Source: a virus (lineage: Duplodnaviria > Caudoviricetes). From it: a stretch of DNA of 43,466 bases. The stretch spans positions 1-43,466 of the IMG/VR virus record IMGVR_UViG_3300037657_000249; one strand, given 5' to 3'. The first letter of the stretch is position 1, and every line of letters starts with the position of its first letter. Below the pieces are notes generated by a model that saw only the letters and a program-made list of their open reading frames with translations, made no database searches and had not been told where the DNA came from. A program made the translations under genes and the position numbers. Positions 1,381 through 41,885 of this stretch are shown here, piece by piece.

Positions 1381-1411
1381 GGTGGGGCTCCTCTCATGGG
1401 GTATTTGTCAG

Positions 1412-1441
1412 AGAAGGGGGCCGGGGTCGTGCTGCTGCTCA
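1412..1441 (-). promoter_or_regulatory. Phage-specific promoter motif
   Basis: TGAGCA-N13-GGCCCCCTTCT; predicted +1 at 1406. Confidence 0.75.
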
Positions 1442-1451
1442 ATAAATGCGA

Positions 1452-1482
1452 GAAGGCCCCCGGAGTGATCCGAGGGCCTTTC
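1452..1482 (-). terminator. Intrinsic terminator
   Basis: GAAGGCCCCCGGA/TCCGAGGGCCTTT stem. Confidence 0.65.
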
Positions 1483-1493
1483 GTTCGCGTGGC

Positions 1494-2156
1494 TTAGTGC
1501 TGGGGGGTCGGCTCGCCGAGAATGCGCGAGACCGTGGACTTCGAGACGCCGGTCTCGGCCGCGATCTCGCGGACCGTCTTAGCCTCCGTGGCGAGCCGCC
1601 GGACGTGGGCGTCGACGGCGGCGGTCCGGCGCGAGCGGGTCGAGGCCGCGCGGCGCGCGCGCTGCGGTGCCGCGGCCGGTGTGGGGGCCGGGACCTCGGC
1701 GGCGGGCGCGTGGTCCTCGACGATCAGCTCGGCGAGGGTGTGCATCGCGAGGAGGGCGGCGATCGGCGCGAGGCCAGCGATAACGGCCCCGACTAGGTGC
1801 TCCTGGTCAGGGGTCAGTCCGCCCCATGCGTGGAGCGCGTTCGCACCGACCGAGAGGGCGGTCCAGAGGATCAGGGAGACCCAAGCGAACCTGTAGGGGC
1901 CGGTCTGGCGACGGGCACGGAACACGAACAGCGCGAGCGTGTAGACGAGGATCGCGCCGTCGAAGGTGATCGGGACCGCCGAGCGGAGCCACTCGGGGAC
2001 GCTAGCCCACTCGGCCGCGGCCGTGAGGCCGGAGAAGGTGAGCATCATGGACGAGACGAACACGACGACCGCGGAGAGGATGCCGAGGAGGAGTACGGGC
2101 ATTGAGTCCGGCCGGATGCGGTCGCGGCGCTTCGGGGTGTGGGGCTGAGTGGTCAT
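1494..2156 (-). CDS. DUF2637-like multi-TM protein with C-terminal HTH, 220 aa
   Basis: Several TM segments (FSGL...VPITFDGAIL...SVGANALHA) followed by TVREIAAETGVSKSTVSRIL HTH; RBS GAAAGGA. Confidence 0.75.
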   Translation of the reverse strand: MTTQPHTPKRRDRIRPDSMPVLLLGILSAVVVFVSSMMLTFSGLTAAAEWASVPEWLRSAVPITFDGAILVYTLALFVFRARRQTGPYRFAWVSLILWTALSVGANALHAWGGLTPDQEHLVGAVIAGLAPIAALLAMHTLAELIVEDHAPAAEVPAPTPAAAPQRARRAASTRSRRTAAVDAHVRRLATEAKTVREIAAETGVSKSTVSRILGEPTPQH

Positions 2157-2182
2157 CGTGTGGGGTCCTTTCGTGGGGCGCT

Positions 2183-2776
2183 TCACGCTTCGATCATTAC
2201 GATTTGGTGGCAGGGGCAGAGCGGGGCGCCGTAGCTGTCGAGCCAGGTACGGGTGAGGCGGGCGATATAGCCGGAGCCCTCGGCGCACTCGACCTTGAGC
2301 ATCCGCGTACCCTGCTTCTTCGGGCCGTCGGCGCCGTCAGCCGACCCGAGGCGCGCGTGGGGGTAGGGGCCGATTTCGGCGACGAGCGCTTCGAGGCGGG
2401 CCTTCAGCTCGTCCCCGGCGACCGTGGCGGTCATCTTGCCGGTGAGGCCGATCGCCTTCGCGATCTTGGCGAAGCGTCCCTTGTGGCCGCTCTCGCAGTC
2501 GTCGACGGCGTGAACCAGCTCGTGCGCGAGAACGTCGAGCACGCGGACCGCGTCGTCGAGGACGGGGGAGATAAAGAGCTGAGAGACGCCGTCGGCTGCG
2601 GCCTTCGACGACCAGCACTGACCGATCACGGCGTTCTTACGGCCGCGCCCGCCGGGCCAGCCGACCGAGACGCGGACCTGGGGGATGGTCTCGCCGACCT
2701 CGGCGAAGAGAACAGCGAGGCGGTCGACGGCGGCGACGAGCCACTCCTCGCGGGTGTTGTACGTGGTGCCGGTCAT
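2183..2776 (-). CDS. SprT-like zinc metalloprotease, 197 aa
   Basis: LAHELVHA HExxH motif plus GH-x-G-x-F and a C-terminal Cys cluster (C...CPC). Confidence 0.85.
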   Translation of the reverse strand: MTGTTYNTREEWLVAAVDRLAVLFAEVGETIPQVRVSVGWPGGRGRKNAVIGQCWSSKAAADGVSQLFISPVLDDAVRVLDVLAHELVHAVDDCESGHKGRFAKIAKAIGLTGKMTATVAGDELKARLEALVAEIGPYPHARLGSADGADGPKKQGTRMLKVECAEGSGYIARLTRTWLDSYGAPLCPCHQIVMIEA

Positions 2777-2805
2777 TGTGGGCTCCTTTCTGGGGGCGTG
2801 TAAAC

Positions 2806-2899: not shown

Positions 2900-3688
2900 T
2901 TAGACCGCTAGAGCTGCACGCATTTTCTCCAGTGCGCCGGTCCGCGTGCGCTGCACCTTCTGGCGGGAGAATCCGAGGCGGTGGGCGATCTCGGCGTCCG
3001 GGACCGGGTCGAAGTCCGAGAATCCATAGGCGAGGCGGACGACGTCGGCCTCCAGAGAGTCGACGGCCTGAAACGCTGCCTCGACGAGGATCGCGTCCTC
3101 GACGTCGGCCTCCTTGCCGTCCCACAAGGGGCGTACGTCCGCGCGGTTCCACCGCTCGCTCTCGTCGGTGCCGTGGTCGACGTCGAGCGAGTCGACATTG
3201 CGCACGGCGTAGAAGACCGCGAGGAAGGTCTCGGTTTTCATTTCGTAGGCCGGGGCGAGGGCTGCCGCCTCGTAGACGTTCCCGCCCGCCGCCCGGAGAA
3301 TGCCGTAGAACCGCTTCAGCGTCCGGCTCGGGATAGAAAACGCGATCGGGCCGACGATGCTCGTCGAGACGGCGTCGGCGAGGTATCCGGCGATGATCGC
3401 GGCCAGCCGATCATGCGAGGTCGGGTCGAAGGCGTGGATCGCCTCCAATAGCCCCTCGATCGCTGCGGTCCGAAGGTCCTCGGAGTCGCCGCCCCATGCG
3501 CCGCCCGCCGAGCGGTACGAGCTGGCGGCGTTTCGCAGAGCGGGGGCGTAGGCGTACACGAGCGCGATCGTCGCGTCCTGGTCGCCAAGCTGTGCCTTCG
3601 CGAGCGCCAAACGCTCCTCTTCGACGGTCATGCGCGTCTCGGCGCCCTGCTCGAACACCTCGGCGAGTACATTCTCGAATGCGGTCAT
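2900..3688 (-). CDS. Sigma70-like transcription factor, 262 aa
   Basis: Region 2-like DLRTAAIEGLLEAIHAFDP and region 4 HTH PDAEIAHRLGFSRQKVQRTRTGALEKMR; RBS GAAAGGA. Confidence 0.85.
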   Translation of the reverse strand: MTAFENVLAEVFEQGAETRMTVEEERLALAKAQLGDQDATIALVYAYAPALRNAASSYRSAGGAWGGDSEDLRTAAIEGLLEAIHAFDPTSHDRLAAIIAGYLADAVSTSIVGPIAFSIPSRTLKRFYGILRAAGGNVYEAAALAPAYEMKTETFLAVFYAVRNVDSLDVDHGTDESERWNRADVRPLWDGKEADVEDAILVEAAFQAVDSLEADVVRLAYGFSDFDPVPDAEIAHRLGFSRQKVQRTRTGALEKMRAALAV

Positions 3689-3700: not shown

Positions 3701-3792
3701 CGTGAGGCGCCTCACGTTATGAGCCGGGCTCATTGCGCGGGCGTTCTTGTGTTGATCTGGGGTACGTTAGGCACGCGAGGCGCCTCACGCAA
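3701..3792 (-). promoter_or_regulatory. SigA promoter of the sigma-like gene with two operators (3701-3716 perfect palindrome; 3774-3789)
   Basis: TTGCGT-N17-TAACGT at 3764-3792; CGTGAGGCGCCTCACG and CGCGAGGCGCCTCACG. Confidence 0.8.
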
Positions 3793-6106: not shown

Positions 6107-8614
6107 CTACAGGATCGCGTCGAGGTCGGCGCCGTGCAGAGTGGATACCGACGGGGTCGGGGGCTCAGATGAGTAGGGGGCCGGGGCGCCCTCCTCTGCC
6201 CGTTCCGGTGCAGTGTGATCCGGGACCGCGTCGGTCTGGCGCGCTCGTCGGATGCCGTCGAACACGGTTTTACCGCCCGTCCCGCGCCGCTTGACGAGGC
6301 CGCGCTCCTCCAGCGCTCCGAAGAACGCCCGGCGGCTCCAGCGCTTGAGGTCGAGGTAGTTGCCCTCGTCCGCCCACTCTTGGAAGGCGTGGAAGAGCTG
6401 CTCGCCCTGCACGCTCTTACCGGAGTCGTCGAGTACGAACACGCCGGGGAGGAAGCCGTCGAGCACGTTCGAGGTCTCGCGGTACTCGCGGGTTGAGGTG
6501 CGGATGACGTCCGGGTCTCCGAGCCCGTCGGCGTACCACTCCACGGCGCCGCGCACGGCCCACGCGAAGATTCCCTCGGCCTCCGCGAGGAGCTTCTCGC
6601 CGAGCTGCGGGTCGCGCTCCTCCGGCTTGAAGAATCGCTCCCACGGAATGAGCTTCACCCGGCGCCAGAGCCCCTCGTCCTGCCCTTTGAAGTTGGGCTT
6701 CGCGTTCGTCGCCAGCATGAGGAGGAACGTCGGGCGGAACTCGAAGAACTCCTTGCGCATGAACCGCGCCGAGATCAGGTCGCGGCCGGTAACGCGCTTG
6801 AGCACGGCCTCCGCCATTTGCCTACCCTGCTCGCCCTCGGATGCCATGACCAAGCGGGCGCCCTTGAGCGCTGCGAGGTCGTTCGGGATGCCGCCGGAGG
6901 GGCGATCCTCGAAGGTCGAGAACGGCGTCGTTACGGTCAGCTCGCGGAATACCTCGGTGGTCGTGTCCGTGAAAACTGACTTCCCATTAGCCCCGCGGCC
7001 CCAGTGGACAACGAAGCACTGCTCGGTCGTGTGCCCGGTGATCCCGTAGCCGACGACCCGGCGGAGGTAGTCGGGAATGGCCGGGTGATTCGGGAACACC
7101 TCGCCGAGGAACGACTCCCACCGCGGCGCTCGCGCGTCGGGGTTGTAGTCGAGGTCGATGCGCCGAGTGAGGAGAAGCGTCGGGTCGTGCGGCTGGAGGA
7201 CTCCGGTCCGTAGGTTCACGACGCCATTACGACAGGCGACGAGGTCGGGGTGCCGGTCGAAGTCGTCGAGCGCTGCGGGCACGCCGCGGACGGCCTGAAG
7301 CTCGCGGATCATGTAGTCGATGCCCTTCGACGTCTGGACGTGTGCGGCGTAGCGATTGAGGCGGCTCGCGCGCTTCTTGTCTGAGTCAGAGGCGCCGTCG
7401 CGGACGGCCTCGATCGAGGCTTCCCGCGCGAGCTTGCGGACGAGGTCGGCGACGTTCTGGGCGTGGGTTCGGATCGCCTGGCGCTCGTCTCGGCGCCACA
7501 CGCCCTCTTCGAGGAGGTAGAAGCCGGTCTCCTCGGAGTAGCGAACGCCCGAGCCGAGACTCTCGACGTAGTCGCGGAGGTAGCGCGCCCCGCCGAGATC
7601 GGTCAGCGAGTAGCGCTCCTCGTCCCACGCGAGGAGGGCCGCGGTGCGGGACTTGACCGGCGCGGCCTTCGCGATTGCGACGTGCGCCTCGACGTCGAAC
7701 CGGGCGGGGTTGCCCGCGCGCCAGTCGGACAAGTCGAGACCGTCGGGGACGTCGAGGATACGGACCGCGACCTCGCGCGCGACGAGGCCCTCGGCGAGCT
7801 GCGTCGAGAACCGCCGACCGGCGGGGTCGCCGTCGCCAGCGATCACGGCCTCGCGGTCGCCGATCATGCGCGCGACCTCGTCGAGTACGTGCTCGTTCGA
7901 GGCGAGGCCCGCTCCGCGGATTCCGACCGTGTCGAACCCGAGGGATGCGGCGGCGGTCAGGGCGTCGCCCGGCCCCTCCGTGACGAGGACTTGCCCGTCG
8001 TACCCGCCTGAGCCGGTGAAGTAGCCGATCTTCGACCACGAGGCGCCCTCCGGCGACTTCGGCCCGAGCCAGCGGAGACCGGCCTCGGGGTCGAGCGCGC
8101 GCGCCTGGAAGCCGCGGGCGACGCCGTCGCGGTCGCGGAACGGGACGACTAGGCGGAGCTGCGGACCGAAGCGCGGGTCGCCGAGATCGTCGGCGAGGCC
8201 GAGCCCCAGACGCCGCGCGTCGTCCGCCGTCACGCCGAAGCGCTCGGCGGCGTAGGCGAGAACGGCCTTCGCGTTTGCCGTTCGCTTGCCGAGGTCCTTC
8301 GCGTAGCGGTCGAGCTTCACGGCCAGCGCGGCAACCTCGGCGGGGGACGCCGGGGCGTCGGTAGAGGTCGCGAGACGCCCGAGGTCGACGTCCCCCGCGG
8401 TCATCGTCGCGAGGTCGCGCATGGAGAGCCCGAGCGCGGCGAGCACGTCGGCGGTCTCACAGCCTGCTCGGCACTTGGCGAGGACCTTTCCGCGGTCCGA
8501 GACCGTCAGACGAAGGCTCTGTTGCGAGTCGTCGTGCGCCGGACAGTGGACGAGGTAGCCGTCCGGCGCTTCCTCGACGTCGTCGAATCGGGCGAGGAGA
8601 TCAGCAAGATTCAA
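6107..8614 (-). CDS. DNA primase/helicase (Zn finger, TOPRIM, D5/P4-type SF3 helicase), 835 aa
   Basis: CPAHDD...C-x-AGC Zn finger, TEGPGDAL / GDGD TOPRIM, GRGANGKS Walker A, RFMRKEFFEF; TTG start after RBS GAAAGGA. Confidence 0.93.
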   Translation of the reverse strand: MNLADLLARFDDVEEAPDGYLVHCPAHDDSQQSLRLTVSDRGKVLAKCRAGCETADVLAALGLSMRDLATMTAGDVDLGRLATSTDAPASPAEVAALAVKLDRYAKDLGKRTANAKAVLAYAAERFGVTADDARRLGLGLADDLGDPRFGPQLRLVVPFRDRDGVARGFQARALDPEAGLRWLGPKSPEGASWSKIGYFTGSGGYDGQVLVTEGPGDALTAAASLGFDTVGIRGAGLASNEHVLDEVARMIGDREAVIAGDGDPAGRRFSTQLAEGLVAREVAVRILDVPDGLDLSDWRAGNPARFDVEAHVAIAKAAPVKSRTAALLAWDEERYSLTDLGGARYLRDYVESLGSGVRYSEETGFYLLEEGVWRRDERQAIRTHAQNVADLVRKLAREASIEAVRDGASDSDKKRASRLNRYAAHVQTSKGIDYMIRELQAVRGVPAALDDFDRHPDLVACRNGVVNLRTGVLQPHDPTLLLTRRIDLDYNPDARAPRWESFLGEVFPNHPAIPDYLRRVVGYGITGHTTEQCFVVHWGRGANGKSVFTDTTTEVFRELTVTTPFSTFEDRPSGGIPNDLAALKGARLVMASEGEQGRQMAEAVLKRVTGRDLISARFMRKEFFEFRPTFLLMLATNAKPNFKGQDEGLWRRVKLIPWERFFKPEERDPQLGEKLLAEAEGIFAWAVRGAVEWYADGLGDPDVIRTSTREYRETSNVLDGFLPGVFVLDDSGKSVQGEQLFHAFQEWADEGNYLDLKRWSRRAFFGALEERGLVKRRGTGGKTVFDGIRRARQTDAVPDHTAPERAEEGAPAPYSSEPPTPSVSTLHGADLDAIL

Positions 8615-8650
8615 GGGTTGGTCATCCTTTCGAGGGAGCTGGCAAAGAAT

Positions 8651-8713
8651 CGGCCCCCTCCCTGCATCGTTTTTCGTGATGAGGGAGGGGGCCGTAGTGG
8701 TCGGGCGTGCCCA
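8651..8713 (-). promoter_or_regulatory. Phage promoter variant whose 3' half is the 5' arm of a terminator hairpin
   Basis: TGGGCA-N14-GGCCCCCTCCC; CGGCCCCCTCCCT/AGGGAGGGGGCCG 13-bp stem followed by ATTCTTT. Confidence 0.65.
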
Positions 8714-9877: not shown

Positions 9878-10594
9878 CTACGCCGCGCCCTTGATCTTGA
9901 GCACGGGCTTGGTGTACTGCACGACCTGACCGGCGCGCGGGCCGTTCTTCGCGGTGAACGACACCTCTTCGAGCGAGAGCGTCGCCGCGACGCGGCCGGT
10001 CTCGGAGTCGGAAGCGTAGTCCGCGAGGTCGCCCTCCACGTCCGCATAGGCGAGGTCGCTCGCCATGCTCCACGAGCCGGTCTGGAACTTGAAGATTCCG
10101 AGATCGGGGTTGTCTGCGAGGCGGAAGTAGATCTCGATCTGTGGCTCCGCGCCGATGCCGTCCCTGGCCTTCTGCTTGCGCTCCGCGAAAGTGAGCTGGG
10201 CGTCGGGGTCGGGCTGGCCCTTCTGATCGTCCGGGTAGGTGAGCGTCTCGCCGTCTCCGGCCTGAATCGGCTTACCGTTGCGGCCCCAGAGGATCATCTG
10301 CTGGCGGATTGCCTTGGTGCCTTCGAGGATGATCTCGACGCTCGGCGATGCCGAGAACACTTCGAGGTTGTCCTCGCCCTTGGCCTCCCATTCCTGGGGG
10401 GCGTCACCTCCGAGGAGGTCGAAGATCGCGGCGGCGACTTCGGGGTCTCCGGTCGTCACGCGCCAATCCGTCAGGGCGGCGGGGCGGCCGTTGAGCTGGT
10501 AGCCGGAACGGAACCGGCCGACAATGTCGTCCGCGAACCGCTGGCGCGGCTTCTGCTCGGTGCTGGGGTCATTTCCGAAAATGCGAAGCGCCAA
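9878..10594 (-). CDS. Recombination directionality factor (phiC31 gp3-like), 238 aa
   Basis: GRFRSG...WRVTTGDPEVA...FRLADNPDLGIFKFQTGSW...YTKPVL; TTG start after AGAAGGGAGG. Confidence 0.8.
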   Translation of the reverse strand: MALRIFGNDPSTEQKPRQRFADDIVGRFRSGYQLNGRPAALTDWRVTTGDPEVAAAIFDLLGGDAPQEWEAKGEDNLEVFSASPSVEIILEGTKAIRQQMILWGRNGKPIQAGDGETLTYPDDQKGQPDPDAQLTFAERKQKARDGIGAEPQIEIYFRLADNPDLGIFKFQTGSWSMASDLAYADVEGDLADYASDSETGRVAATLSLEEVSFTAKNGPRAGQVVQYTKPVLKIKGAA

Positions 10595-10643
10595 GCGGCG
10601 CCTCCCTTCTTGTAGTTGGACCGTCCCGAATGCGGGACAACGG

Positions 10644-10673
10644 AGAAGGGGGCCGGTGAATTGTTGGTGCTCA
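10644..10673 (-). promoter_or_regulatory. Phage-specific promoter motif
   Basis: TGAGCA-N13-GGCCCCCTTCT; predicted +1 at 10638. Confidence 0.75.
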
Positions 10674-11402: not shown

Positions 11403-11434
11403 CACTCGATCGGTCCTCTCGGGGTTGTTTCCCG

Positions 11435-11464
11435 AGAAGGGGGCCGGGTGCTGCGCGGTGCTCA
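11435..11464 (-). promoter_or_regulatory. Phage-specific promoter motif
   Basis: TGAGCA-N13-GGCCCCCTTCT; predicted +1 at 11429. Confidence 0.75.
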
Positions 11465-12858: not shown

Positions 12859-13703
12859 GCGGCACCCGTCGCCGGGCGTGCGCGCGGTGCGCGTCGCTTC
12901 GGGCCACTCGCGACCGCGTCGGCCGGACCGTAGAACGCTGGCGTTCCGACGACCGACGAGCGGGTCTCCTTCTCGTAGTTGAAGACCTCGCGGAGGTGGA
13001 GGAATACCTCGAACATCGCTTCGTCGGCGCGTACTGGAACGAGCTTCCAACCCTCGGGGCGGACGTGGAGCACGGCGGCGCCGTCGGACTCGGGCATAGG
13101 CACACGCCCGCCGTCCTGGCGGATGATCGAGTCGGCGTAACGGTACGCCGCGAGCTGGATTCCGACCTCCTCGTGAATGCCGGACCGGGTCGTCTTGTTG
13201 TCGATCCATACGCGCTCACCTTGGATCGTCGCGAAAGCATCGAACGACCCGGCGTATGCGAGCCCGGGGCCGCGGGAGTCAGACCATACGGTCTCCTCCA
13301 TGAAGTGATACTCAGGCTGCACGACGTCGAGGAACTCGGCGAAGTGCCGGACGAACGGGTCGAGGTCCGGGTGGACGCGGCCCATCGTCTCGCCGCGCGC
13401 CATGCGCTCGAAGAGGTCGTGGGCGGCGGTGCCAGTGTCGGCGGCCTTGCGGGTGTTGCGGTCGGGCGACTTCTTCAGGTGGTCGATCGCGGCGCTCGGG
13501 TCGCGAAGCGTCATCGAGACGATCGTCCCCAACTCCTCGACCGCGGTCGTCGCGACCTCTTTCGCGGCCCAATAGCGGAGGAACTCCTTCGGGAGCATCC
13601 CGACGACGGAGGTCACTCCGGGGACCTTCATTGAGCCGTCGTCAGGGTTGATATAGAAGCGCGAGCCGCCGCGCTTGATCGTGCTTAGTTTCGGGGTCGT
13701 CAC
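12855..13703 (-). CDS. PD-(D/E)XK exonuclease (Cas4/RecB-like), 282 aa
   Basis: PGVTSV, GTAAH, E...YAGSFD...IDNKT...QLAAY. Confidence 0.88.
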   Translation of the reverse strand: MTTPKLSTIKRGGSRFYINPDDGSMKVPGVTSVVGMLPKEFLRYWAAKEVATTAVEELGTIVSMTLRDPSAAIDHLKKSPDRNTRKAADTGTAAHDLFERMARGETMGRVHPDLDPFVRHFAEFLDVVQPEYHFMEETVWSDSRGPGLAYAGSFDAFATIQGERVWIDNKTTRSGIHEEVGIQLAAYRYADSIIRQDGGRVPMPESDGAAVLHVRPEGWKLVPVRADEAMFEVFLHLREVFNYEKETRSSVVGTPAFYGPADAVASGPKRRAPRARPATGAA

Positions 13704-13743
13704 GGTGGACGGGCCTCCTTCTACGTCGGGGATAGGACGTAGA

Positions 13744-13773
13744 AGAAGGGGGCCGGGCCGGTGCCGGTGCTCA
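13744..13773 (-). promoter_or_regulatory. Phage-specific promoter motif
   Basis: TGAGCA-N13-GGCCCCCTTCT; predicted +1 at 13738. Confidence 0.75.
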
Positions 13774-13786
13774 CGGGCGGCGAGGT

Positions 13787-13889
13787 AGTGACGTAGTGAC
13801 GGAAGTTACGTCACTCTCCATTCGGCTTGAAGAGTTAGAGAACCTACTACCCGGATACAGAGTGACGTTACTTCCGTCACTTTCTCACT
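13787..13889. repeat. Nested inverted repeat, copy 1
   Basis: 31-bp arms (27/31 complementary) built from AGTGACG units; first 32 bp identical to the copy at 41897. Confidence 0.9.
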
Positions 13890-14488
13890 CGGGAGCCGTT
13901 CGCGGCGTCGACGATCGCCTCCGCGAGGCCGTTTACACGCTCCACCGCGGCGCCGACCTCGCGGCGTTTCCCGGCGGGGAGGGCGCCGACGGCCGGGATG
14001 GAGACACGACGGAGGGCGGCCTCCATCATTCGAGCGGCGTTCACGATCTCCTCGGCGTCCACTAGCTCGTGCCCGCCAGCGCCGAAGATCGAGAGGGTCT
14101 CGGAGTAGCGCTCTCGCTTCTCGACGGACCGCTCGCGCGGGCTCTCGGGGCGGAGTCCTAGCTCCTCGATCTGCTCGGCTGTGAGCTGCTCGCGGAGCGC
14201 CGCGCCGGAGTGATACCGGACGGCCGCCTGGATCGTCGGGGCCTCGGACGACGGTATGTGCGCTTGCGCCATTGTCTCGCGCACCCAGCGGCGATAAGCG
14301 TTCGTCCTGCCGGTCCAGTCCGGCTCTCCTTCCTGAGTAAAGAAGTGGCGCCGAGCCCATACGAACGTCGCCGCGGTTCGCTTGAGGAGGGCGGTACGGT
14401 CGACGTCATCGCCGCCCTCGTGGTACGCCGCGAGGGCGCTGGCGGCCGTAGCCTGGAGGTCCGCTAGGGATACGTTTCGATCAACCAT
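13877..14488 (-). CDS. Candidate immunity repressor, 203 aa
   Basis: Stand-alone leaderless gene with an operator-overlapped promoter, between the lysis/kinase and exonuclease genes; PDWTGRTNAYR...QAAVRYH motif. Repressor role is inferred. Confidence 0.55.
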   Translation of the reverse strand: MVDRNVSLADLQATAASALAAYHEGGDDVDRTALLKRTAATFVWARRHFFTQEGEPDWTGRTNAYRRWVRETMAQAHIPSSEAPTIQAAVRYHSGAALREQLTAEQIEELGLRPESPRERSVEKRERYSETLSIFGAGGHELVDAEEIVNAARMMEAALRRVSIPAVGALPAGKRREVGAAVERVNGLAEAIVDAANGSRVRK

Positions 14489-15147: not shown

Positions 15148-15344
15148 TTGGCGGTCCGCGTTGGCGTCGTGGTCGTGTACCGGACGAGGAGCCCGGAGCG
15201 GCGCTCGACGGTCGTCTCGCCGTCGTCCCACGTCACGCGGTAGCGGTCTCTGCCGAGTCCGAGCGTCACGCGCCCGAGACGGCGGCCGGTCGAGTCGGCG
15301 ACGAGCTGCTCGGCCTTCAGTGGGCGACTTGTGCGTTGGGCCAT
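15144..15344 (-). CDS. Hypothetical protein, 66 aa
   Basis: RBS GAGAGGAGG; GTGA overlap with the kinase gene. Confidence 0.75.
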   Translation of the reverse strand: MAQRTSRPLKAEQLVADSTGRRLGRVTLGLGRDRYRVTWDDGETTVERRSGLLVRYTTTTPTRTAK

Positions 15345-15379
15345 AGTCGGCCCCTCCTCTCAATTAGGGGGTGTGCGAG

Positions 15380-15409
15380 AGAAGGGGGCCAGCGTTGCCG
15401 CATTGCCCG
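15380..15409 (-). promoter_or_regulatory. Phage-specific promoter motif (variant)
   Basis: CGGGCA-N13-GGCCCCCTTCT; predicted +1 at 15374. Confidence 0.7.
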
Positions 15410-35472: not shown

Positions 35473-35563
35473 CTGGGGCTAGAGGAGGAGAGTCGTCGCT
35501 CGGCCGCTGTTACTGCATGTGATTGCGCGCCGAGTCGGGCGGGGTTCTCTCCCTCCGCATAGG

Positions 35564-35593
35564 AGAAGGGGGCCGGGGTTGCACCACGTTTAC
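35564..35593 (-). promoter_or_regulatory. Phage promoter variant at the head of the tRNA/late region
   Basis: GTAAAC-N13-GGCCCCCTTCT; predicted +1 at 35558. Confidence 0.65.
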
Positions 35594-35597
35594 ACGA

Positions 35598-38250: not shown

Positions 38251-38252
38251 TG

Positions 38253-38399
38253 CTACCGCCTAGCGAGGCACGCGGGGAGCTGCCCCGGTGGCGCGACGTA
38301 CACGCCTCCCGAGACAGCACACCCGACGCTCTCCACGGCGCTATAGGCGCTGAGCGCGAGCAGGACGACCACGAGAGCGACCCTCGCGGCGTGCCTCAC
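38253..38399 (-). CDS. 48-aa secreted or membrane peptide with two Cys
   Basis: GTGA overlap; MRHAARVALVVVLLALSAYSAVESVGCAVSGGVYVAPPGQLPACLARR. Confidence 0.6.
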   Translation of the reverse strand: MRHAARVALVVVLLALSAYSAVESVGCAVSGGVYVAPPGQLPACLARR

Positions 38400-38707
38400 G
38401 CCTTGAACGCTCCCGGCTCCTCGGCCGACGGCGAGGCCGCGAGGAGCGCGAGGAGCGCTTCGAGGGACTCGTCGCCCTCCGGCGTGGCGGTGACGGGGAA
38501 CGTGTGGAACACGGCCTCCAAGTTGGCGCGCGTCTCCTCGTATCCTCCGTCAAGCTCGGCGTTGGCGACGTCGACGAAGTCGGCGAGGGCGGTCGCGAAC
38601 TTCGCGAATGCGGGCGAGAGTACCTCGGCCTTCTCGTGGGTCGCGAAGGGGCCGTCGACCTCGGACGAGCGGAGGATCGCGAGGTAAGAGTTGAGCGGAA
38701 TCTGCAC
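38396..38707 (-). CDS. Hypothetical acidic protein, 103 aa
   Basis: GTG after GAAAGGA; downstream of a phage promoter motif. Confidence 0.75.
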   Translation of the reverse strand: MQIPLNSYLAILRSSEVDGPFATHEKAEVLSPAFAKFATALADFVDVANAELDGGYEETRANLEAVFHTFPVTATPEGDESLEALLALLAASPSAEEPGAFKA

Positions 38708-38742
38708 GTTGTTTCCTTTCGAGTGTTGTCAGGTGACGAATG

Positions 38743-38772
38743 AGAAGGGGGCCGCCGTGGCGAGGTTGCTCA
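38743..38772 (-). promoter_or_regulatory. Phage-specific promoter motif
   Basis: TGAGCA-N13-GGCCCCCTTCT; predicted +1 at 38737; preceded by a terminator at 38778-38824. Confidence 0.75.
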
Positions 38773-38959
38773 ATAAATGCCAAGAGGCCCCCGCCCCGAG
38801 CTGGGGAGAGGGCCTCTAGTGGCAAGCGCCGCCGCGCTCGCGGGCCTACGGCCCTGAGAGGGCGCGCGGGGCGTTGAGCTGGGCGGTGTGGGGGCGCGCT
38901 ACTAAGCCGCGTCGTTTGGTCTCCCGGCGGCGTTCAAAGCCGGGAGCCCCCTACATTTG

Positions 38960-39165
38960 CTAGGTCGGCCAGGGGAACTCGCGGAGAGCGCCGGTGAGGT
39001 ACGCCCCCCAGCCGATGATCGCCACGGACTGCCACGCGCTCAGTCGGCGCCTGACCTCGTCGAGTCGGGTCGCGAGGTAGCGTGCCTCTCGCTCGGCCTC
39101 CTGTCGACGCCGTAGCTCCAGCTCCAGGGGGCGGGGGCGTTTGGGTCGACGTTTCCGGCGCCCAC
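38960..39165 (-). pseudogene. Coiled-coil plus TM small protein with its start codon out of frame
   Basis: Frame GRRKRRPKRP...EAEREARYLATRLDEVRRRLSAWQSVAIIGWGAYLTG has no in-frame ATG/GTG/TTG near its 5' end; the GTG overlapping the upstream TAG is one G short. Confidence 0.45.
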
Positions 39166-39413
39166 TAGCTCCAGCGGACGCGGCGGAGGACGCCGCTTAG
39201 GCCGGTGTCGATGTACGAGCCACGGCGGAGCATCGTCGCGATACGCGCCGCGCTGCGGTACGTGCGGAGACCGGGCCAGTAGCCCACCGGGGCGTCGTAG
39301 ACCTCGGTCACCCACACGTCGACCGTCCACTGGCGGCGGAGGACGTGGAACTCGAACCATGCGAGGCCGACGTAGAGGGCGGCTCGGGCGTGGTACACGA
39401 GCGCGGCCTTCAC
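39165..39413 (-). CDS. Hypothetical protein, 82 aa
   Basis: GTGA overlap; RBS GGAGGA. Confidence 0.65.
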   Translation of the reverse strand: MKAALVYHARAALYVGLAWFEFHVLRRQWTVDVWVTEVYDAPVGYWPGLRTYRSAARIATMLRRGSYIDTGLSGVLRRVRWS

Positions 39414-39664
39414 GAGTAGTCCTCCAGCTCGCCGAGCGGAGGGAGCGGCGTGGCGATGCGGTAGCGGCCGAACTCGTCCGGCGCTGCGTTCGCGATCTCC
39501 AGCACGGCGGCGACGTCGGAGCCGGGGGCCAGCATGTACCCGGCCGGGTCCTCCTTCACGCCGCCGTTGTCCGTCGTGTCGACGAGAACGATCATGCCGG
39601 TCTCGACGACGCGCCGGGCGACGAACCTCGCCGGGGGCGGGGCTGGCTTCTTGCGTGGGGTCAT
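39410..39664 (-). CDS. Hypothetical protein, 84 aa
   Basis: ATGA overlap; RBS AAGGAG. Confidence 0.7.
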   Translation of the reverse strand: MTPRKKPAPPPARFVARRVVETGMIVLVDTTDNGGVKEDPAGYMLAPGSDVAAVLEIANAAPDEFGRYRIATPLPPLGELEDYS

Positions 39665-40161
39665 AGCGGGGTGATCTCCTTACCGATCTCGCTGTCGTAC
39701 TCGGCGCGCGAGGTGAACAGGAACAGGTCGCGCCTGCCCGCCTCCGCGTGCCGGAGCGCGTAGGTGGCTGAGCTGGCGGACAGGAACGGCGCGACGTCGC
39801 CCGTCTCGTTGTCGACGAGCAACACGAACCGGACGCCCTTGTGCGTGACCGTACCGAGCCAGAACCGCGGCGCCGGATCGGGCTCCTCGCCGAGGAGGTC
39901 GCGAAGCTCGGAGTCGAGTCCGCTCGATGCGCGTGCGGCCCACTCGTCCAGCTCGACCTCCGTCAGCGGGCGGCCTTGGAGAAGCCGAGTCCGCGCCGGG
40001 TCGCGTTCGAGGATGCTCACCATTTCCGGGGCGAACGAGCGCAACGTCGGATAGCCGAGCCGAGTCTCCGTGTCCGCGACGACCGCCGGTTCGCCGATGC
40101 TGCTCCAAGCTGGCGAGACGCGGGCCGGGTCGAGGGCGAGGATGATGAAGCGCGCCGTCAT
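39661..40161 (-). CDS. Hypothetical two-domain protein, 166 aa
   Basis: ATGA overlap; RBS GGAGG; two hhhhD-x-ET motifs. Confidence 0.75.
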   Translation of the reverse strand: MTARFIILALDPARVSPAWSSIGEPAVVADTETRLGYPTLRSFAPEMVSILERDPARTRLLQGRPLTEVELDEWAARASSGLDSELRDLLGEEPDPAPRFWLGTVTHKGVRFVLLVDNETGDVAPFLSASSATYALRHAEAGRRDLFLFTSRAEYDSEIGKEITPL

Positions 40162-40385
40162 GCGTACCTCCGCGTGATCCGCCGGGCCTTGCGGGCTGCC
40201 TTACCGCGTGCGCGGCGCTTGGCGACCTCGTCGGCGGGGACCGTACCGGCGTAGACGTGCCGCCCGGTCAGCGCGAGGGCGAAGAGGAGCGAGCGCTGGA
40301 ACGGGTTGGGCTCGACGAGCGGCGCACCCTCCGCGAGACGCTCGACGATCGCGGGGCTCGGGGTGCTCGTGGCGTCCGGGTTCAT
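40158..40385 (-). CDS. Hypothetical protein, 75 aa
   Basis: HVYAGTVP-x-x-EVAKRRAR-x-K-x-AR-x-x-R motif seen in actinophage proteins. Confidence 0.7.
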   Translation of the reverse strand: MNPDATSTPSPAIVERLAEGAPLVEPNPFQRSLLFALALTGRHVYAGTVPADEVAKRRARGKAARKARRITRRYA

Positions 40386-40717
40386 TCGGCGGCCTCGGCG
40401 GGCTCGTCGACCTCGGCGACGATCGCCTCCATGAGTCCGCGGCGGTGCTCGACCGGGACCTCGCGGAGGTAGTCGCTCGCGTCGGTGATCGTGTCCGACC
40501 ACTCACGCGAGTACCCGGCGAGCTTGTCGGGCTGCGCCATGCCGGAGTTGAGGGCTTCGACGGCCGACGCGGCGACCATACCGGCGAGAATGTCTCCGGC
40601 GACCGCGAACGGGTAGACCGAGTCGGTCTCGGAGTCGATGACGACGAGGGTGTGGAGGGCGTCGACGCCGAGGCGGTAGCGCTCGGTGTTGTCCTCGGAG
40701 AGGTAGCGCGTGGTCAT
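40382..40717 (-). CDS. Hypothetical acidic protein, 111 aa
   Basis: RBS GAAAGGA; ATGA coupling. Confidence 0.75.
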   Translation of the reverse strand: MTTRYLSEDNTERYRLGVDALHTLVVIDSETDSVYPFAVAGDILAGMVAASAVEALNSGMAQPDKLAGYSREWSDTITDASDYLREVPVEHRRGLMEAIVAEVDEPAEAAE

Positions 40718-40956
40718 GGGCGGGGTCCTTTCGGTGTGGGTTTGTTGAGGGTGAGGTCAGGGGTGCGCCACTCCTCGCGCCACCAATCGGCGAGGCGAGC
40801 GAGTAGGGCACCGAGGGCGGCGAGCGCGGATGCGCGGATGGGCGCCAGAGCCGCGGCCAGGGCGCCGACGGAGTCCGTGAGGGACGCTCGTCGAGCCTGG
40901 CCGCTGGCGCTAGCTCGGGCGCACTCGCACACTTGGCACGAGCACGGAGGGGTCAC
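40714..40956 (-). CDS. Hypothetical protein, 80 aa (CxCxxC N-terminus)
   Basis: GTGA overlap with the upstream gene. Confidence 0.6.
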   Translation of the reverse strand: MTPPCSCQVCECARASASGQARRASLTDSVGALAAALAPIRASALAALGALLARLADWWREEWRTPDLTLNKPTPKGPRP

Positions 40957-41441
40957 GCCGGGACGCCCTCGAAGAGGACGACGCACAGCGCTTCGAAGTC
41001 TTTGGCTGTGTAGTCGCCGGGGTAGTCCTCGGGGACGGGGTCGCCGTTGTAGTAGTTCCAGCCGCCGCGGCTGTTCTTCGTCCAGTGGACCTCTGCGAGG
41101 GGCCAGAAGATCACGGCTCCCGGGCGGAGGTGCGCGGTGGCGTCGGCGAACGACCGCTGGCGGGCGGCCTCGGCTACGGCTGCGGCTTTGGCCTCGGCCT
41201 CGGCTACGGCGGCGTCGTGCGAGTCGGCCGCCTCCACGAGTGCGCGAGCTGCCGCGCGCGCCTCGTCAGGCGAGAACAGGAGGACGAAGTGATCCCCGAT
41301 GGAGTAGCGGCGGTCGCTTCTCGTTGCACGGACGAACACGGCGCGGTCCTCGTGGCGGGCCTCCGGGCTCGGATAGTTCCGCGTGATCTTGAGGTCCGGG
41401 GTGTCGAGCATGACTTGGTTGTCTTGGGTCTCCTCGTTCAT
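40953..41441 (-). CDS. Hypothetical protein, 162 aa
   Basis: ATGA overlap; RBS GAAGAGG; PDEARAAARALVEAAD helix. Confidence 0.7.
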   Translation of the reverse strand: MNEETQDNQVMLDTPDLKITRNYPSPEARHEDRAVFVRATRSDRRYSIGDHFVLLFSPDEARAAARALVEAADSHDAAVAEAEAKAAAVAEAARQRSFADATAHLRPGAVIFWPLAEVHWTKNSRGGWNYYNGDPVPEDYPGDYTAKDFEALCVVLFEGVPA

Positions 41442-41629
41442 TCGAAGAACACCTCTTCGACGTCGTCGAGGTGGACGACGGCGGGGCGACCGCGGCGGCC
41501 GGTCTGGACTGAGAAGTAGTCGGGGTCGGTGGGGTGGGCCTTGACCGTGCCGGTGAAGGTCTTTCCGTCCGTGGAGCGGGTGACGGTGACGGTCGCGCCC
41601 GTCTGGGCGGCGCGTTCGAGTGCGTTCAT
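41438..41629 (-). CDS. Small SH3/Sm-like protein, 63 aa
   Basis: Beta-rich; TGRRGRP; RBS GAAGGA. Confidence 0.7.
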   Translation of the reverse strand: MNALERAAQTGATVTVTRSTDGKTFTGTVKAHPTDPDYFSVQTGRRGRPAVVHLDDVEEVFFE

Positions 41630-41817
41630 GCTTGGTCCTTCTGGGTTGTAGTTGAGCGGGGACGCGCTGCGCGTGGAGCTGGGAAGAGGGCGAGGGTCGC
41701 AAGGACCTGGGCCTCGGAGAGGTGCGCGCGGCGGGCTTCGGATGCCAGCGGGTACGAGCGAGCCTGGATTAGCTGGTCGATCGCTTCGAGCCGGAACTGG
41801 TCAGGGGTGAGTGCCAA
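41626..41817 (-). CDS. Hypothetical protein, 63 aa
   Basis: TTG after GAAGGAG; AQV-x-ATLAL motif. Confidence 0.7.
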   Translation of the reverse strand: MALTPDQFRLEAIDQLIQARSYPLASEARRAHLSEAQVLATLALFPAPRAARPRSTTTQKDQA

Positions 41818-41855
41818 ATAGCTCCTTCGGTAGGTCCGTGGGACTGGGTCGAAGG

Positions 41856-41885
41856 AGAAGGGGGCCGTGCCCGGCTAATTGCTCA
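41856..41885 (-). promoter_or_regulatory. Phage-specific promoter motif
   Basis: TGAGCA-N13-GGCCCCCTTCT; predicted +1 at 41850. Confidence 0.75.

What the first reader, a model, noticed from the sequence alone, without database searches (positions are those of the whole stretch)
1381..41885. Phage promoters that double as RNA locks: promoter sequence sequesters the next RBS, or forms a terminator, only in read-through transcripts
Seen: in 7 of ~10 copies of the GGCCCCCTTCT motif, the motif and/or the next few bases are complementary to sequence just downstream. At 15349-15390, GGCCCC-C-TTCTCTC pairs with GAGAGGA-GGGGCC (13 bp, covers the RBS). At 13713-13751, CCTTCTTCTACGTC pairs with GACGTAGAAGGAGG (exonuclease RBS). 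At 11415-11439, CTTCTCGGG pairs with CCCGAGAGG (MTase RBS). At 41822-41857, CTCCTTCG pairs with CGAAGGAG. At 10600-10654, CCCTTCT pairs with AGAAGGG (RDF RBS). At 1386-1422, CTTCTC pairs with GAGAGG. At 8651-8693, a 13-bp stem plus ATTCTTT gives a terminator before the primase gene. In each case the 5' arm lies essentially upstream of the predicted +1. Established: T4 uses early-transcript hairpins to silence some late genes. Inference: leaky or read-through RNA (e.g. from int or the repressor in the lysogen) would be translationally dead or terminated, while RNA started at the phage promoter would lack the arm and be active. This would be a genome-wide gate encoded in the promoter itself, which I do not know to be described for this phage group.
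Basis: partly seen in the sequence, partly recalled or inferred. Interest (0 to 1): 0.85.

Follow-up and report, generated by a model that had tools for sequence, protein, structure and literature searches.

The report
Promoter-embedded ribosome-site locks in prophage
In this soil-type prophage the conserved phage promoter sequence is complementary to the ribosome-binding site of the next gene at five of seven genes, so RNA reading through from upstream would likely be untranslatable while RNA predicted to start at the promoter would be free; this is a known phage T4 trick, found here in a different phage family.

Summary
GGCCCCCTTCT occurs 8 times exactly, always on the gene (minus) strand, as the second half of a bipartite motif TGAGCA-N13-GGCCCCCTTCT. 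Two degenerate copies sit at syntenic positions. The window is a provirus related to Arthrobacter cluster AZ phages and encodes a sigma factor (3688-2900). Each relative has its own core version with the same layout. A conserved purine 16 nt after the core start fits a canonical +1, so the CTTCT tract is the inferred -10 element.

Folding shows the Shine-Dalgarno site is locked in long RNA and freed in RNA starting at +1 for 5 of 7 coding leaders. Forty-one control genes show no such shift. Across 10 phages, 30 of 61 leaders exceed the controls' 95th percentile.

The exonuclease leader hairpin recurs in 15 of 16 relatives with compensatory changes. Cognate arms fold at -23.0 kcal/mol against -15.4 for chimeric arms.

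So the structure is real and selected. It is gene-specific (exonuclease, post-integrase gene, a few others), not genome-wide. No transcription start has been mapped.

The mechanism is already known from T4 genes e, soc, 49 and I-TevI, and from CT-rich insulators in sigma-54 promoters. This is a new member of a known kind.

The parts
41817..41885 (-). P41866 unit, first promoter after the integrase gene. -35 TGAGCA 41885-41880; core 41866-41856; inferred +1 G 41850; 5' arm CTCCTTCG 41857-41850; 3' arm CGAAGGAG (SD) 41829-41822; TTG start 41817.
   Evidence: SD opening energy is 11.5 kcal/mol in the long leader and 4.7 in the short one. The lock is lost only once the 5' end lies at about -2 or later.
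38707..38772 (-). P38753 unit. -35 38772-38767; core 38753-38743; inferred +1 38737; GTG start 38707. No lock.
   Evidence: Cognate rank 48 of 48. Opening energy 4.8 long, 2.7 short.
35558..35595 (-). P35574. Same core (35574-35564) but no TGAGCA; GTGTAAAC lies upstream at 35595. It precedes tRNA-Asn (35472-35399), tRNA-Trp (35290-35217) and the packaging genes.
15344..15409 (-). P15390 unit. -35-like GGGCA; core 15390-15380; inferred +1 A 15374; 5' arm 15391-15376; 3' arm 15362-15348 (covers the SD GAGAGGAGG); ATG 15344.
   Evidence: 15 pairs, -23.4 kcal/mol. Cognate rank 0 of 48. Opening energy 15.7 long, 6.6 short.
13703..13773 (-). P13754 unit (exonuclease). -35 13773-13768; core 13754-13744; inferred +1 G 13738; 5' arm 13755-13736; 3' arm 13727-13710 (covers the SD GAAGGAGG); GTG 13703.
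   Evidence: Rank 1 of 48. Opening energy 11.7 long, 4.0 short. The hairpin is conserved with covariation in 15 of 16 relatives.
11405..11464 (-). P11445 unit (D12 adenine methyltransferase). -35 11464-11459; core 11445-11435; inferred +1 A 11429; 5' arm 11446-11432; 3' arm 11422-11411; GTG 11405.
   Evidence: Variable-part rank 0 of 48. Opening energy 11.9 long, 2.8 short.
10594..10673 (-). P10654 unit (Gp3-like RDF). -35 10673-10668; core 10654-10644; inferred +1 G 10638; outer stem joining 10653-10635 to 10626-10600 around an inner hairpin; TTG 10594.
   Evidence: The SD is sequestered in both forms, 12.9 long and 12.3 short, so this is not a start-site-dependent lock.
8614..8713 (-). P8693. 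Degenerate core GGCCCCCTCCC 8693-8683, with GGGCA upstream. The core forms the 5' arm (8694-8678) of a 17-pair hairpin whose 3' arm is 8668-8651, followed by TTCTTT. Primase/helicase TTG start at 8614.
   Evidence: Fold of -39.1 kcal/mol. Relatives have a promoter at the syntenic position. The primase SD itself is not locked: 4.2 long, 2.9 short. The simple terminator scan did not list this hairpin.
6166..6202 (-). P6182. Degenerate core GGCCCCCTACT 6182-6172 inside the 3' end of the primase ORF, upstream of the DNA polymerase gene (start 6003).
   Evidence: Nine of the 9 relatives with a defined core carry a copy of their own core at this position.
1380..1441 (-). P1422 unit. -35 1441-1436; core 1422-1412; inferred +1 A 1406; 5' arm 1422-1409; 3' arm 1398-1386; GTG 1380.
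   Evidence: Rank 12 of 48, i.e. generic complementarity. Opening energy still shifts, 8.8 long to 3.6 short.
2900..3688 (-). Phage sigma factor gene (262 aa), the likely reader of the motif.
   Evidence: Pfam Sigma70_r4 at 8.5e-5. PHROG 351 'RNA polymerase sigma factor' at 4.4e-18 over residues 5-259. Near full-length match to PDB sigma factor 6pfv_A at 3.7e-4, plus RpoH, RpoS and WhiG. Homologue of Lizalica gp43 (bioRxiv 10.1101/2025.05.26.655371, passages read).
13877..14488 (-). Upstream gene whose RNA would run into the exonuclease promoter and leader. No terminator-like site was found between its stop codon and P13754.
   Evidence: Sequence read. The terminator scan lists 14590-14547, upstream of this gene, and nothing between 13877 and 13754.
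13777..13900 (-). GTGACG-repeat array (operator-like) upstream of P13754. A near-identical array lies upstream of P41866 at 42008-41887.
   Evidence: The two promoters carrying this array are the two whose locks are conserved across relatives.

Best explanation
The motif TGAGCA-N13-GGCCCCCTTCT is most likely the promoter read by the phage's own sigma factor. Its CT-rich -10 part, together with the next ~8 bases, pairs with the Shine-Dalgarno site of the downstream gene. RNA arriving from upstream would therefore be translationally locked, while RNA predicted to start about 6 nt after the motif would lack the 5' arm and be translatable.

Shown directly:
- the motif, its copies and their strand
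- the complementarities
- the sigma gene
- the same architecture with phage-specific cores in relatives
- covariation of the exonuclease and post-integrase leader hairpins
- the computed difference in SD accessibility between long and short leaders

Inferred:
- that the motif is a promoter
- that +1 is the conserved purine at core position 16
- that upstream-initiated RNA reaches these genes
- that the hairpin blocks 30S binding in vivo

The lock is strong and gene-specific at the exonuclease gene, the first gene after int, the dNMP-kinase-side ORF and the methyltransferase. It is generic at 1422. It is absent at 38753. At the RDF gene it does not depend on the start site. At 8693 the same promoter core forms the 5' arm of a terminator-like hairpin, which would stop only RNA that comes from upstream.
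For: (1) Promoter assignment.
- All 8 exact copies are on the gene strand, and 6 of 8 have TGAGCA at a fixed 13-nt distance.
- The phage encodes a sigma factor.
- Nine relatives with a defined core have the same layout, TG(A/G)G(C/T)A-N13-GGC NNN CT(Y/A)C(T/A), each with its own core, at syntenic positions.
- In 77 copies from 10 phages, position 16 is a purine in 71 (G in 61) and position 15 is a pyrimidine in 68. Taking position 16 as +1 puts TGAGCA at -35..-30 and the core at -16..-6.
- The spacing GAGC-N15-GCC... equals that of the flagellar/WhiG class, -35 TAAA and -10 GCCGATAA (consensus read in PMC8325347).

(2) The lock in this window.
- SD opening energy, long versus short leader: 11.5/4.7, 15.7/6.6, 11.7/4.0, 11.9/2.8 and 8.8/3.6 kcal/mol at five leaders.
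- The 41 control genes average 4.9, with a long-minus-short difference of 0.1 +/- 1.7 and a 95th percentile of 3.0.
- The lock disappears for any 5' end from about -4 (about -2 at P41866) onward and persists for any 5' end at or upstream of -16.

(3) Relatives.
- 61 leaders average 8.0 long and 4.3 short.
- 30 of 61 exceed the controls' 95th percentile. 21 of 61 differ by more than 5 kcal/mol, against 8 of 472 controls. Mann-Whitney p = 2.7e-13.
- In the 29 leaders above threshold, 161 of 174 SD bases pair with positions -22..-1, most of them at -11..-5.

(4) Selection.
- 15 of 16 exonuclease leaders fold the promoter onto the SD.
- Cognate arms give -23.0 kcal/mol against -15.4 for chimeric arms; permutation p = 5e-5.
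- Stem positions -5..-1 each show 3-4 different standard pair types.
- In a model-based alignment of 13 leaders, 85% of cells are paired against 75 +/- 2% after shuffling partners; 0 of 2000 shuffles reach the observed value.
- Post-integrase leaders: cognate -15.1 against chimeric -10.4 kcal/mol; p = 2.5e-4.

(5) A source of read-through exists. The gene at 14488-13877 ends about 100 nt before P13754, with no terminator-like site between them.
Against: - No transcription start has been mapped, and no RNA run holds this DNA.
- The +1 rests on a conserved purine and on promoter geometry alone.
- Evidence that the structure is on the sense RNA strand is weak. The sense hairpin is the more stable in only 8 of 15 cases (p = 0.25). 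G.U pairs number 20 of 230 on the sense strand against 10 of 212 on the antisense strand.
- Many leaders show no lock. In one search the cognate RBS ranked in the worse half for about a third of 60 pairs. Elezi shows it at none of 6.
- At the RDF gene the SD stays closed in the short leader as well.
- Most promoters are already preceded by terminator-like hairpins, so the amount of read-through may be small.
- Where the upstream promoter is of the same class (11445 to 10654), a lock would give no temporal discrimination.
- Sigma divergence tracks core divergence only weakly (Spearman 0.39, Mantel p = 0.058).
Confidence: 0.6

Rival explanations
1. The hairpins act on transcription or RNA ends rather than on translation. 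They would be terminators, pause sites or processing sites (many without a U tract) for RNA coming from upstream. They are packed on top of the next promoter for compactness, and the SD lies in the 3' arm only because the leader is short.
For: At 8693 the promoter core is the 5' arm of a 17-pair GC-rich hairpin followed by TTCTTT. Leaders are only 24-44 nt long, so any 3' arm must lie near the SD.
Against: The exonuclease and post-integrase hairpins have no U tract after the stem. In 29 leaders the SD bases themselves pair with the -10 tract (161 of 174), not merely flanking sequence. Several relatives carry a separate canonical terminator just upstream of the same promoter.
Confidence: 0.15
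2. Transcription starts upstream of the motif, so the hairpin is present in every mRNA. It would then be a constitutive translational repressor or 5' stabiliser that is opened by a phage factor, by temperature, or by ribosomes translating the upstream gene.
For: No start site has been mapped. Soondubu is annotated with an 'RNA binding protein' next to the post-integrase gene. At the RDF gene the SD is closed in both leader forms.
Against: The motif follows terminator T-runs by only a few bases, leaving no room for another promoter. A purine at +1 and a pyrimidine at -1 are conserved at canonical distance. The 5' arms always straddle -16..+3 and never lie wholly inside the inferred transcript. 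Opening costs of 11-16 kcal/mol on essential early genes would then be permanent.
Confidence: 0.12
3. The complementarity is a by-product. The sigma factor happens to need a CT-rich -10, and any purine-rich SD 30 nt downstream will pair with it, with no selected function.
For: Non-cognate RBSs pair with the motif almost as well at 1422, 10654 and, for the conserved part, 41866 and 11445. Elezi, whose core is CTACA, manages without the lock.
Against: The variable bases beyond the motif covary with the bases upstream of the SD in two gene families across 9-15 phages. A by-product would not produce that pattern.
Confidence: 0.1
4. The inverted repeats act at the DNA level, as a cruciform or as a palindromic protein-binding site that regulates the promoter.
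For: Sense and antisense folds are about equally stable. The covariance model also hits the opposite strand.
Against: The arms covary without conserving their sequence, which is unlike a protein-binding site. Where the two strands differ by more than 3.3 kcal/mol, the sense strand is always the more stable, owing to G.U pairs (GardenState, Phives, Mysterium). Loops of 6-10 nt (8-10 in 13 of 15) are poor for cruciform extrusion; this last point is general knowledge, not a result here.
Confidence: 0.03

Closest known systems
Phage T4 translational locks at genes e (lysozyme), soc, 49, I-TevI (also I-TevII/III, segB, Aeh1 mobE)
   Same: The SD and/or start codon sits in a helix that forms only on transcripts from upstream promoters. 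A promoter of a later class lies in the DNA that encodes the 5' strand, so its transcripts lack that strand and are translated (PMC3014915 section 29 and PMC2988022 section 12; passages read).
   Different: In T4 the promoter is the AT-rich late promoter TATAAATA, read by gp55. It sits in the arm but is not itself the anti-SD. Here the inferred -10 element (CTTCT/CTCCT) of a sigma-70-family phage sigma is itself the SD partner, in a high-GC temperate siphovirus of Actinomycetota. T4 starts were mapped and translation was measured; nothing here has been.
[quoted passage not shown]
   Same: Short CT-rich motifs inside a promoter pair with the downstream RBS and silence a gene that is reached by transcriptional read-through. 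The promoter therefore insulates its gene from upstream transcription.
   Different: Those motifs are 3-5 nt, lie within 25 bp of the SD, and belong to sigma-54 promoters of E. coli and other bacteria. Here the tract sits at -10..-6 of a phage sigma promoter, 25-40 nt from the SD. At some genes it is extended to covarying helices of 12-14 bp (up to 15-17 pairs counting bulged stems).
Flagellar/WhiG (sigma-28) promoter class, -35 TAAA / -10 GCCGATAA (consensus read in PMC8325347)
   Same: A bipartite promoter with a 15-nt gap between a 4-mer and an 8-mer that starts with GCC. The ObiToo-type core GCCGACTC shares GCCGA with the consensus. The phage sigma's PDB matches include WhiG and other group-3-like sigmas.
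   Different: The -35 is TGAGCA rather than TAAA. The 3' half of the -10 is CT-rich rather than TAA. Clade membership of the phage sigma was not tested with a tree.

Membership tests
T4-type promoter-in-hairpin translational lock | The SD and/or start codon is sequestered in a helix in RNA that starts upstream. | tested here: met
   Shown by folding only. MFE helices cover the SD at 6 of 7 coding leaders. Opening energy in the long leader is 8.8-15.7 kcal/mol at 6 leaders, against a control mean of 4.9.
T4-type promoter-in-hairpin translational lock | A promoter lies in the DNA encoding the 5' strand, so its own transcripts lack that strand. | tested here: inconclusive
   The 5' arms span -16..+3 of an inferred +1. 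The accessibility switch holds for any start from about -4 onward. No start site has been mapped.
T4-type promoter-in-hairpin translational lock | Upstream-initiated transcripts reach the gene. | not testable with these tools
   No RNA data are available. The only supporting point is that no terminator-like site lies between the gene at 14488-13877 and P13754.
T4-type promoter-in-hairpin translational lock | The long RNA is poorly translated and the short RNA is well translated. | not testable with these tools
   Needs reporter fusions or toeprinting.
T4-type promoter-in-hairpin translational lock | The arrangement is conserved in related phages. | tested here: met
   15 of 16 exonuclease leaders. 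Covariation. Post-integrase leaders in 9 phages.
CT-rich anti-SD insulator in sigma-54 promoters | A sigma-54 promoter (-24 GG / -12 GC). | tested here: not met
   The motif has a -35/-10 layout with a 17-bp spacer, and the phage encodes a sigma-70-family factor.
CT-rich anti-SD insulator in sigma-54 promoters | A short CT-rich motif within about 25 bp upstream of the SD that pairs with it. | tested here: inconclusive
   The CT-rich tract pairs with the SD. However, it lies at -10..-6 with leaders of 24-44 nt, roughly 25-40 nt from the SD.
Sigma-28 / WhiG-class promoter | -35 TAAA, a 15-nt gap, -10 GCCGATAA, read by a FliA-clade sigma. | tested here: inconclusive
   The gap matches. The -10 shares GCC here and GCCGA in the ObiToo-type cores. 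The -35 differs. The sigma clade was not resolved.
Intrinsic terminator (site 8693) | A GC-rich stem-loop directly followed by a U-rich tract. | tested here: inconclusive
   17 pairs at -39.1 kcal/mol, followed by GATTCTTTG.

The most novel reading that the evidence does not exclude
In this phage subfamily the -10 element of a phage-encoded sigma-28-like factor has evolved into a mimic of the 16S anti-Shine-Dalgarno sequence (CTYCT). Every gene of the phage-sigma regulon would then carry a built-in translational insulator against host-sigma (early or lysogenic) read-through. Key genes (the exonuclease operon and the first gene after int) extend it into 12-14 bp covarying locks that work together with a shared operator array.
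Probability: 0.3. Interest if true: 0.7.

Novelty: new member of a known kind. Interest (0 to 1): 0.5.

Why it matters
If the start sites are where the geometry predicts, this phage family couples promoter choice to translatability. A gene would be made only when its own sigma-dependent promoter fires, whatever RNA passes through from upstream. That would explain how densely packed, single-strand phage genomes keep the exonuclease, RDF-side and post-integrase genes silent during lysogeny or early infection.

It also yields two practical products:
- A defined promoter class, TG(A/G)GCA-N13-GGC NNN CTYCT with +1 six nt later, for a sigma-like protein. The cluster AZ comparative preprint describes that protein without a target (0 occurrences of 'promoter' in its full text).
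- A ready-made insulated expression part for high-GC Actinomycetota.

Conceptually it repeats T4 and sigma-54 precedents, so its value lies in generality rather than in a new principle.

Tried and rejected
- RNA evidence. A search of public runs listed 4 DNA holders (groundwater metagenomes) and no RNA holder. Start sites and read-through therefore could not be observed, and read laying was not used.
- Exact extended motif elsewhere. It gave 8 single hits in viral contigs and 120 listed single hits in unrelated bacterial and archaeal contigs. None is multi-copy, so I treated them as chance and did not use them.
- Finding relatives with the sigma protein alone gave one IMG/VR locus. I used the phage collection instead.
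- RNAalifold on a plain MAFFT alignment of 16 exonuclease leaders predicted 0 pairs. Loops and bulges differ in length, so the arms were misaligned.
- A covariance model aligned 13 of the 15 hairpin-bearing leaders. It missed JasmineDragon and Reedo, left outer-stem bulges out of register, and also hit the antisense strand. I therefore counted pairs in a script on the sense exonuclease rows only and relied mainly on per-sequence folds and the cognate-versus-chimeric test.
- The sense-versus-antisense stability test was inconclusive.
- Sigma identity against core distance was only suggestive.
- The phiC31 early-promoter idea was dropped. The NAR 1999 paper is not held, and the window's relatives are Arthrobacter, Microbacterium and Curtobacterium phages rather than phiC31.
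- Reedo, Mysterium, Squircle and Bachaco gave no obvious repeated core by 11-mer counts. They were left out of the genome-wide tests, which used 10 of 14 genomes. The Reedo and Mysterium exonuclease leaders were still used.
- In one search, 17 of 77 promoter copies had no coding start within 150 nt by my rule and were dropped. P41866 was among them because of its 4-nt SD spacing; it was added by hand.
- Literature. Full-text searches found no description of this promoter or lock in cluster AZ or Microbacterium phage papers. Supplements were not read.
- The search of earlier findings returned nothing for this genome.

Full report
**What the window is.**
The 43,466-bp window is an IMG/VR provirus record rated 98% complete. 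It is 68% G+C, and almost all genes lie on the minus strand.

Reading the minus strand, the genes run in this order (Pfam; tRNAs):
- a serine integrase (43466-42057)
- small genes
- tRNA-Asn and tRNA-Trp
- terminase, portal, capsid, tail and lysis genes
- dNMP kinase
- a PD-(D/E)XK exonuclease (13703-12855)
- a D12 methyltransferase (11405-10671)
- a Gp3-like RDF (10594-9878)
- primase/helicase (8614-6107)
- DNA polymerase I (6003-4159)
- a sigma-like protein (3688-2900)

The nearest phages are Arthrobacter cluster AZ phages at about 77% identity over about a quarter of the query. More distant relatives infect Microbacterium and Curtobacterium.

**The motif.**
GGCCCCCTTCT occurs 8 times exactly, always on the minus strand. 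With up to 2 mismatches there are 45 sites, against 19.5 +/- 3.9 in shuffles.

It is the second half of a bipartite element. Six of the 8 copies have TGAGCA exactly 13 nt upstream, and one has GGGCA. The copy at 35574, in front of the tRNAs and packaging genes, has GTGTAAAC upstream instead. Degenerate copies at 8693 and 6182 also carry GGGCA at the right distance. Most copies directly follow a GC-rich hairpin with a T-run.

**Why it is most likely a promoter (inference).**
The protein at 3688-2900 is a sigma factor:
- Pfam Sigma70_r4 at 8.5e-5
- PHROG 351 at 4.4e-18 over residues 5-259
- a near full-length match to PDB sigma 6pfv_A at 3.7e-4, then RpoH, RpoS and WhiG

The cluster AZ preprint reports the homologue Lizalica gp43 as sigma-like by HHpred and Foldseek. 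Its full text has 0 occurrences of 'promoter' in the search listing, so it names no target (listing, passages).

Ten of the 14 phage genomes I assembled (the window plus 13 relatives, 11 of them fetched through handles W01-W11) have the same layout with their own core:

| Phage | Core | Copies |
|---|---|---|
| Window | GGCCCCCTTCT | 8 |
| Soondubu | GGCCCCCTCCT | 7 |
| Elezi | GGCACCCTACA | 8 |
| ObiToo | GGCCGACTCCT | 8 |
| Yang | GGCAACCTTCT | 7 |
| Phives | GGCAACCTTCT | 8 |
| Liebe | GGCCATCTTC | 9 |
| SWEP2 | GGCCATCTTC | 6 |
| JasmineDragon | GGCGCTCTCT | 9 |
| GardenState | GGCGGTCTTCT | 7 |

These copies sit at syntenic places: before dNMP kinase, exonuclease, RDF and primase, inside the primase 3' end, after int, and near the right end.

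Over all 77 copies, the base 16 nt after the core's first G is a purine in 71 (G in 61). The base before it is a pyrimidine in 68. Taking that purine as +1 puts TGAGCA at -35..-30, a 17-bp spacer, and CCCTTC at -12..-7.

The spacing GAGC-N15-GCC... is that of the flagellar/WhiG class, -35 TAAA and -10 GCCGATAA (PMC8325347, passage read). The ObiToo-type core shares GCCGA with that consensus.

Sigma divergence and core divergence correlate only weakly (Spearman 0.39, Mantel p = 0.058).

A second promoter class that resembles host promoters is also present (TTGCGTGAGGCGCC ... TATGCT-GTTTACAC). One copy lies in front of the sigma gene. That fits a cascade from host sigma to phage sigma; this is inference.

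**The complementarity in the window.**

I then compared each promoter with its own RBS against 48 non-cognate RBS segments of the same phage. The rank is the number of non-cognate segments that pair at least as well:

| Promoter | Rank (of 48) | Note |
|---|---|---|
| 15390 | 0 | |
| 13754 | 1 | |
| 10654 | 5 | |
| 11445 | 10 | variable part alone: 0 |
| 1422 | 12 | |
| 41866 | 13 | variable part alone: 2 |
| 8693 | 43 | |
| 38753 | 48 | |

Three or four stems are gene-specific. The rest reflect the generic affinity of a CT-rich tract for any purine-rich SD.

**Long versus short leaders.**
I computed the energy needed to open the 6-nt SD core in RNA starting at -45 and in RNA starting at +1:

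| Promoter | Long (kcal/mol) | Short (kcal/mol) |
|---|---|---|
| P41866 | 11.5 | 4.7 |
| P15390 | 15.7 | 6.6 |
| P13754 | 11.7 | 4.0 |
| P11445 | 11.9 | 2.8 |
| P1422 | 8.8 | 3.6 |
| P10654 | 12.9 | 12.3 |
| P38753 | 4.8 | 2.7 |
| P8693 | 4.2 | 2.9 |

Forty-one other genes of the window were truncated at a mock +1 as a control. They averaged 4.9 +/- 2.8 in the long form. Their long-minus-short difference was 0.1 +/- 1.7, with a 95th percentile of 3.0.

Five of 7 coding leaders therefore switch. The RDF leader is closed in both forms, and one leader is open in both.

Scanning the 5' end from -45 to +8 shows that the lock holds for any start at or upstream of -16. It is gone for any start from about -4 onward, or about -2 at P41866. 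The conclusion therefore tolerates an error of a few bases in +1.

**Relatives.**
In 10 phages, 61 promoter leaders averaged 8.0 long and 4.3 short.
- 30 of 61 exceed the 95th percentile (3.4) of 472 control genes.
- 21 of 61 differ by more than 5 kcal/mol, against 8 of 472 controls.
- Mann-Whitney p = 2.7e-13.
- Elezi, whose -10 is CTACA rather than CTYCT, scores at none of 6.

In the 29 leaders above threshold, 161 of 174 SD bases pair with positions -22..-1, most of them at -11..-5. That region is the -10 element itself.

The cognate-versus-non-cognate rank test on 60 pairs gave 14 at p <= 0.05 and 19 at p <= 0.1 (Fisher 1.6e-5). The distribution is bimodal, and about a third of the pairs rank in the worse half.

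These phages are related to one another, so the counts are not independent events.

**Covariation.**
I collected the exonuclease leader from 16 sources: the window, 11 phage genomes and 4 IMG/VR contigs. Two Pseudarthrobacter prophage copies duplicated two of these and were not added.

Fifteen of 16 fold the region -16..+3 onto the SD; Elezi does not. The arms differ in sequence but stay complementary:
- Window: CCTTCTTCTACGTC / GACGTAGAAGGAGG
- Yang: CTTCTTCCATGC / GCATGGAAGGAG
- Liebe: CTTCTTATCTGTC / GACAGATAAGGAG
- GardenState: TCTTCTAAGCGTC / GACGTTTAGGAGG

Cognate 5' and 3' arms give -23.0 kcal/mol, against -15.4 +/- 3.6 for chimeric pairs of arms (permutation p = 5e-5). Stem positions -5..-1 each show three or four standard pair types.

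In a covariance-model alignment of 13 sense leaders, 85% of cells are paired against 75 +/- 2% with shuffled partners. None of 2000 shuffles reaches the observed value.

The first gene after int shows the same pattern in 9 phages: cognate -15.1 against chimeric -10.4 kcal/mol, p = 2.5e-4.

These two promoters are also the two that carry a duplicated GTGACG-repeat array upstream.

**What remains open.**
- No start site has been mapped.
- The strand of the structure is only weakly indicated. The sense hairpin is more stable in 8 of 15 cases (p = 0.25). G.U pairs number 20 of 230 on the sense strand and 10 of 212 on the antisense strand.
- A source of read-through exists for the exonuclease gene. 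The gene at 14488-13877 ends about 100 nt upstream with no terminator-like site between them. A strong terminator (14590-14547) lies before that gene.
- For several other promoters a terminator precedes the motif, so read-through may be rare.
- Where both promoters are of the same class (11445 followed by 10654), a lock would not separate expression in time.

**Site 8693.**
The degenerate core is the 5' arm of a 17-pair hairpin (-39.1 kcal/mol) followed by TTCTTT. RNA from upstream could terminate there. RNA starting at the inferred +1 (8677) would lack the arm. The primase SD itself is not sequestered. The simple scan did not list the site.

**Comparison with what is known.**
The logic is that of T4 genes e, soc, 49 and I-TevI. 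[quoted passage not shown]

It also matches the CT-rich anti-SD insulators that Levy et al. found inside sigma-54 promoters (bioRxiv 10.1101/086108; abstract read).

It differs in three ways: the host phylum, the sigma class, and the fact that the inferred -10 consensus is itself the anti-SD.

Full-text searches found no description of this promoter class or lock for cluster AZ, EB or EH phages. Supplements were not read.

**Verdict.**
- The lock is gene-specific rather than genome-wide.
- It is a new member of a known kind.

Noticed in passing
window 3701-3716, 3779-3789, 728-738, 315-325, 28982-28992: CGTGAGGCGCC occurs 6 times against 0.15 expected. At 3779-3789 it overlaps a host-type promoter, TTGCGT-N17-TAACGT, in front of the sigma gene. 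At 3701-3716 it forms a perfect 16-bp palindrome, CGTGAGGCGCCTCACG, 12 nt before the sigma start codon. It is likely the operator of an early regulator.
   Followed up: partly
window 42008-41887 and about 13900-13777 (minus strand): A roughly 130-bp array of GTGACG/CGTCAC repeats is duplicated upstream of P41866 and P13754. Both copies contain AGAGTGACGTAACTTCCGTCACTACGTCACT. Relatives have homologous repeats at the same two promoters. This is a candidate binding site for a repressor or activator.
   Followed up: partly
window, 12 sites, e.g. 42038, 36354, 35595, 24386, 6038, 2805, 299: The octamer GTTTACAC/GTGTAAAC recurs 12 times in the window. It often sits just after a TATGCT-like -10 or next to an RBS. 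The related 11-mer CGTTTACACGC occurs 6 times in Soondubu and 5 times in Reedo, and GTGTAAACGC overlaps the RDF start codon in several relatives. Its function is unknown.
   Followed up: no
window 35558-35595, tRNAs at 35472-35399 and 35290-35217: The promoter copy before the tRNAs and packaging genes keeps the -10 core but lacks TGAGCA. In every relative the right-end copy does the same and has GTGTAAACG upstream. This suggests a separate activator for the late operon.
   Followed up: partly
window 15344-15144 and 15363-14596: The RBS locked by P15390 belongs to a 66-codon ORF (GC3 0.87) with no family match. It overlaps, in another frame, the start of the dNMP kinase ORF. In relatives the kinase follows the promoter directly. 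The cause could be a frameshift, an extra small gene, or an assembly error.
   Followed up: no
window 6172-6202; L015 30007, L137 30583 and others: A promoter copy inside the 3' end of the primase/helicase ORF, upstream of the polymerase gene, is kept in all 10 phages, each in that phage's own core version.
   Followed up: partly
L015 (Elezi) 22102-40712: Elezi's core is CCCTACA, and its leaders instead carry C/T-rich tracts downstream of the inferred +1 (for example GTCCCCTCCC). In two leaders the CGGGGC just upstream of the core pairs with GCCCCG between the SD and the ATG. The meaning is unclear.
   Followed up: no
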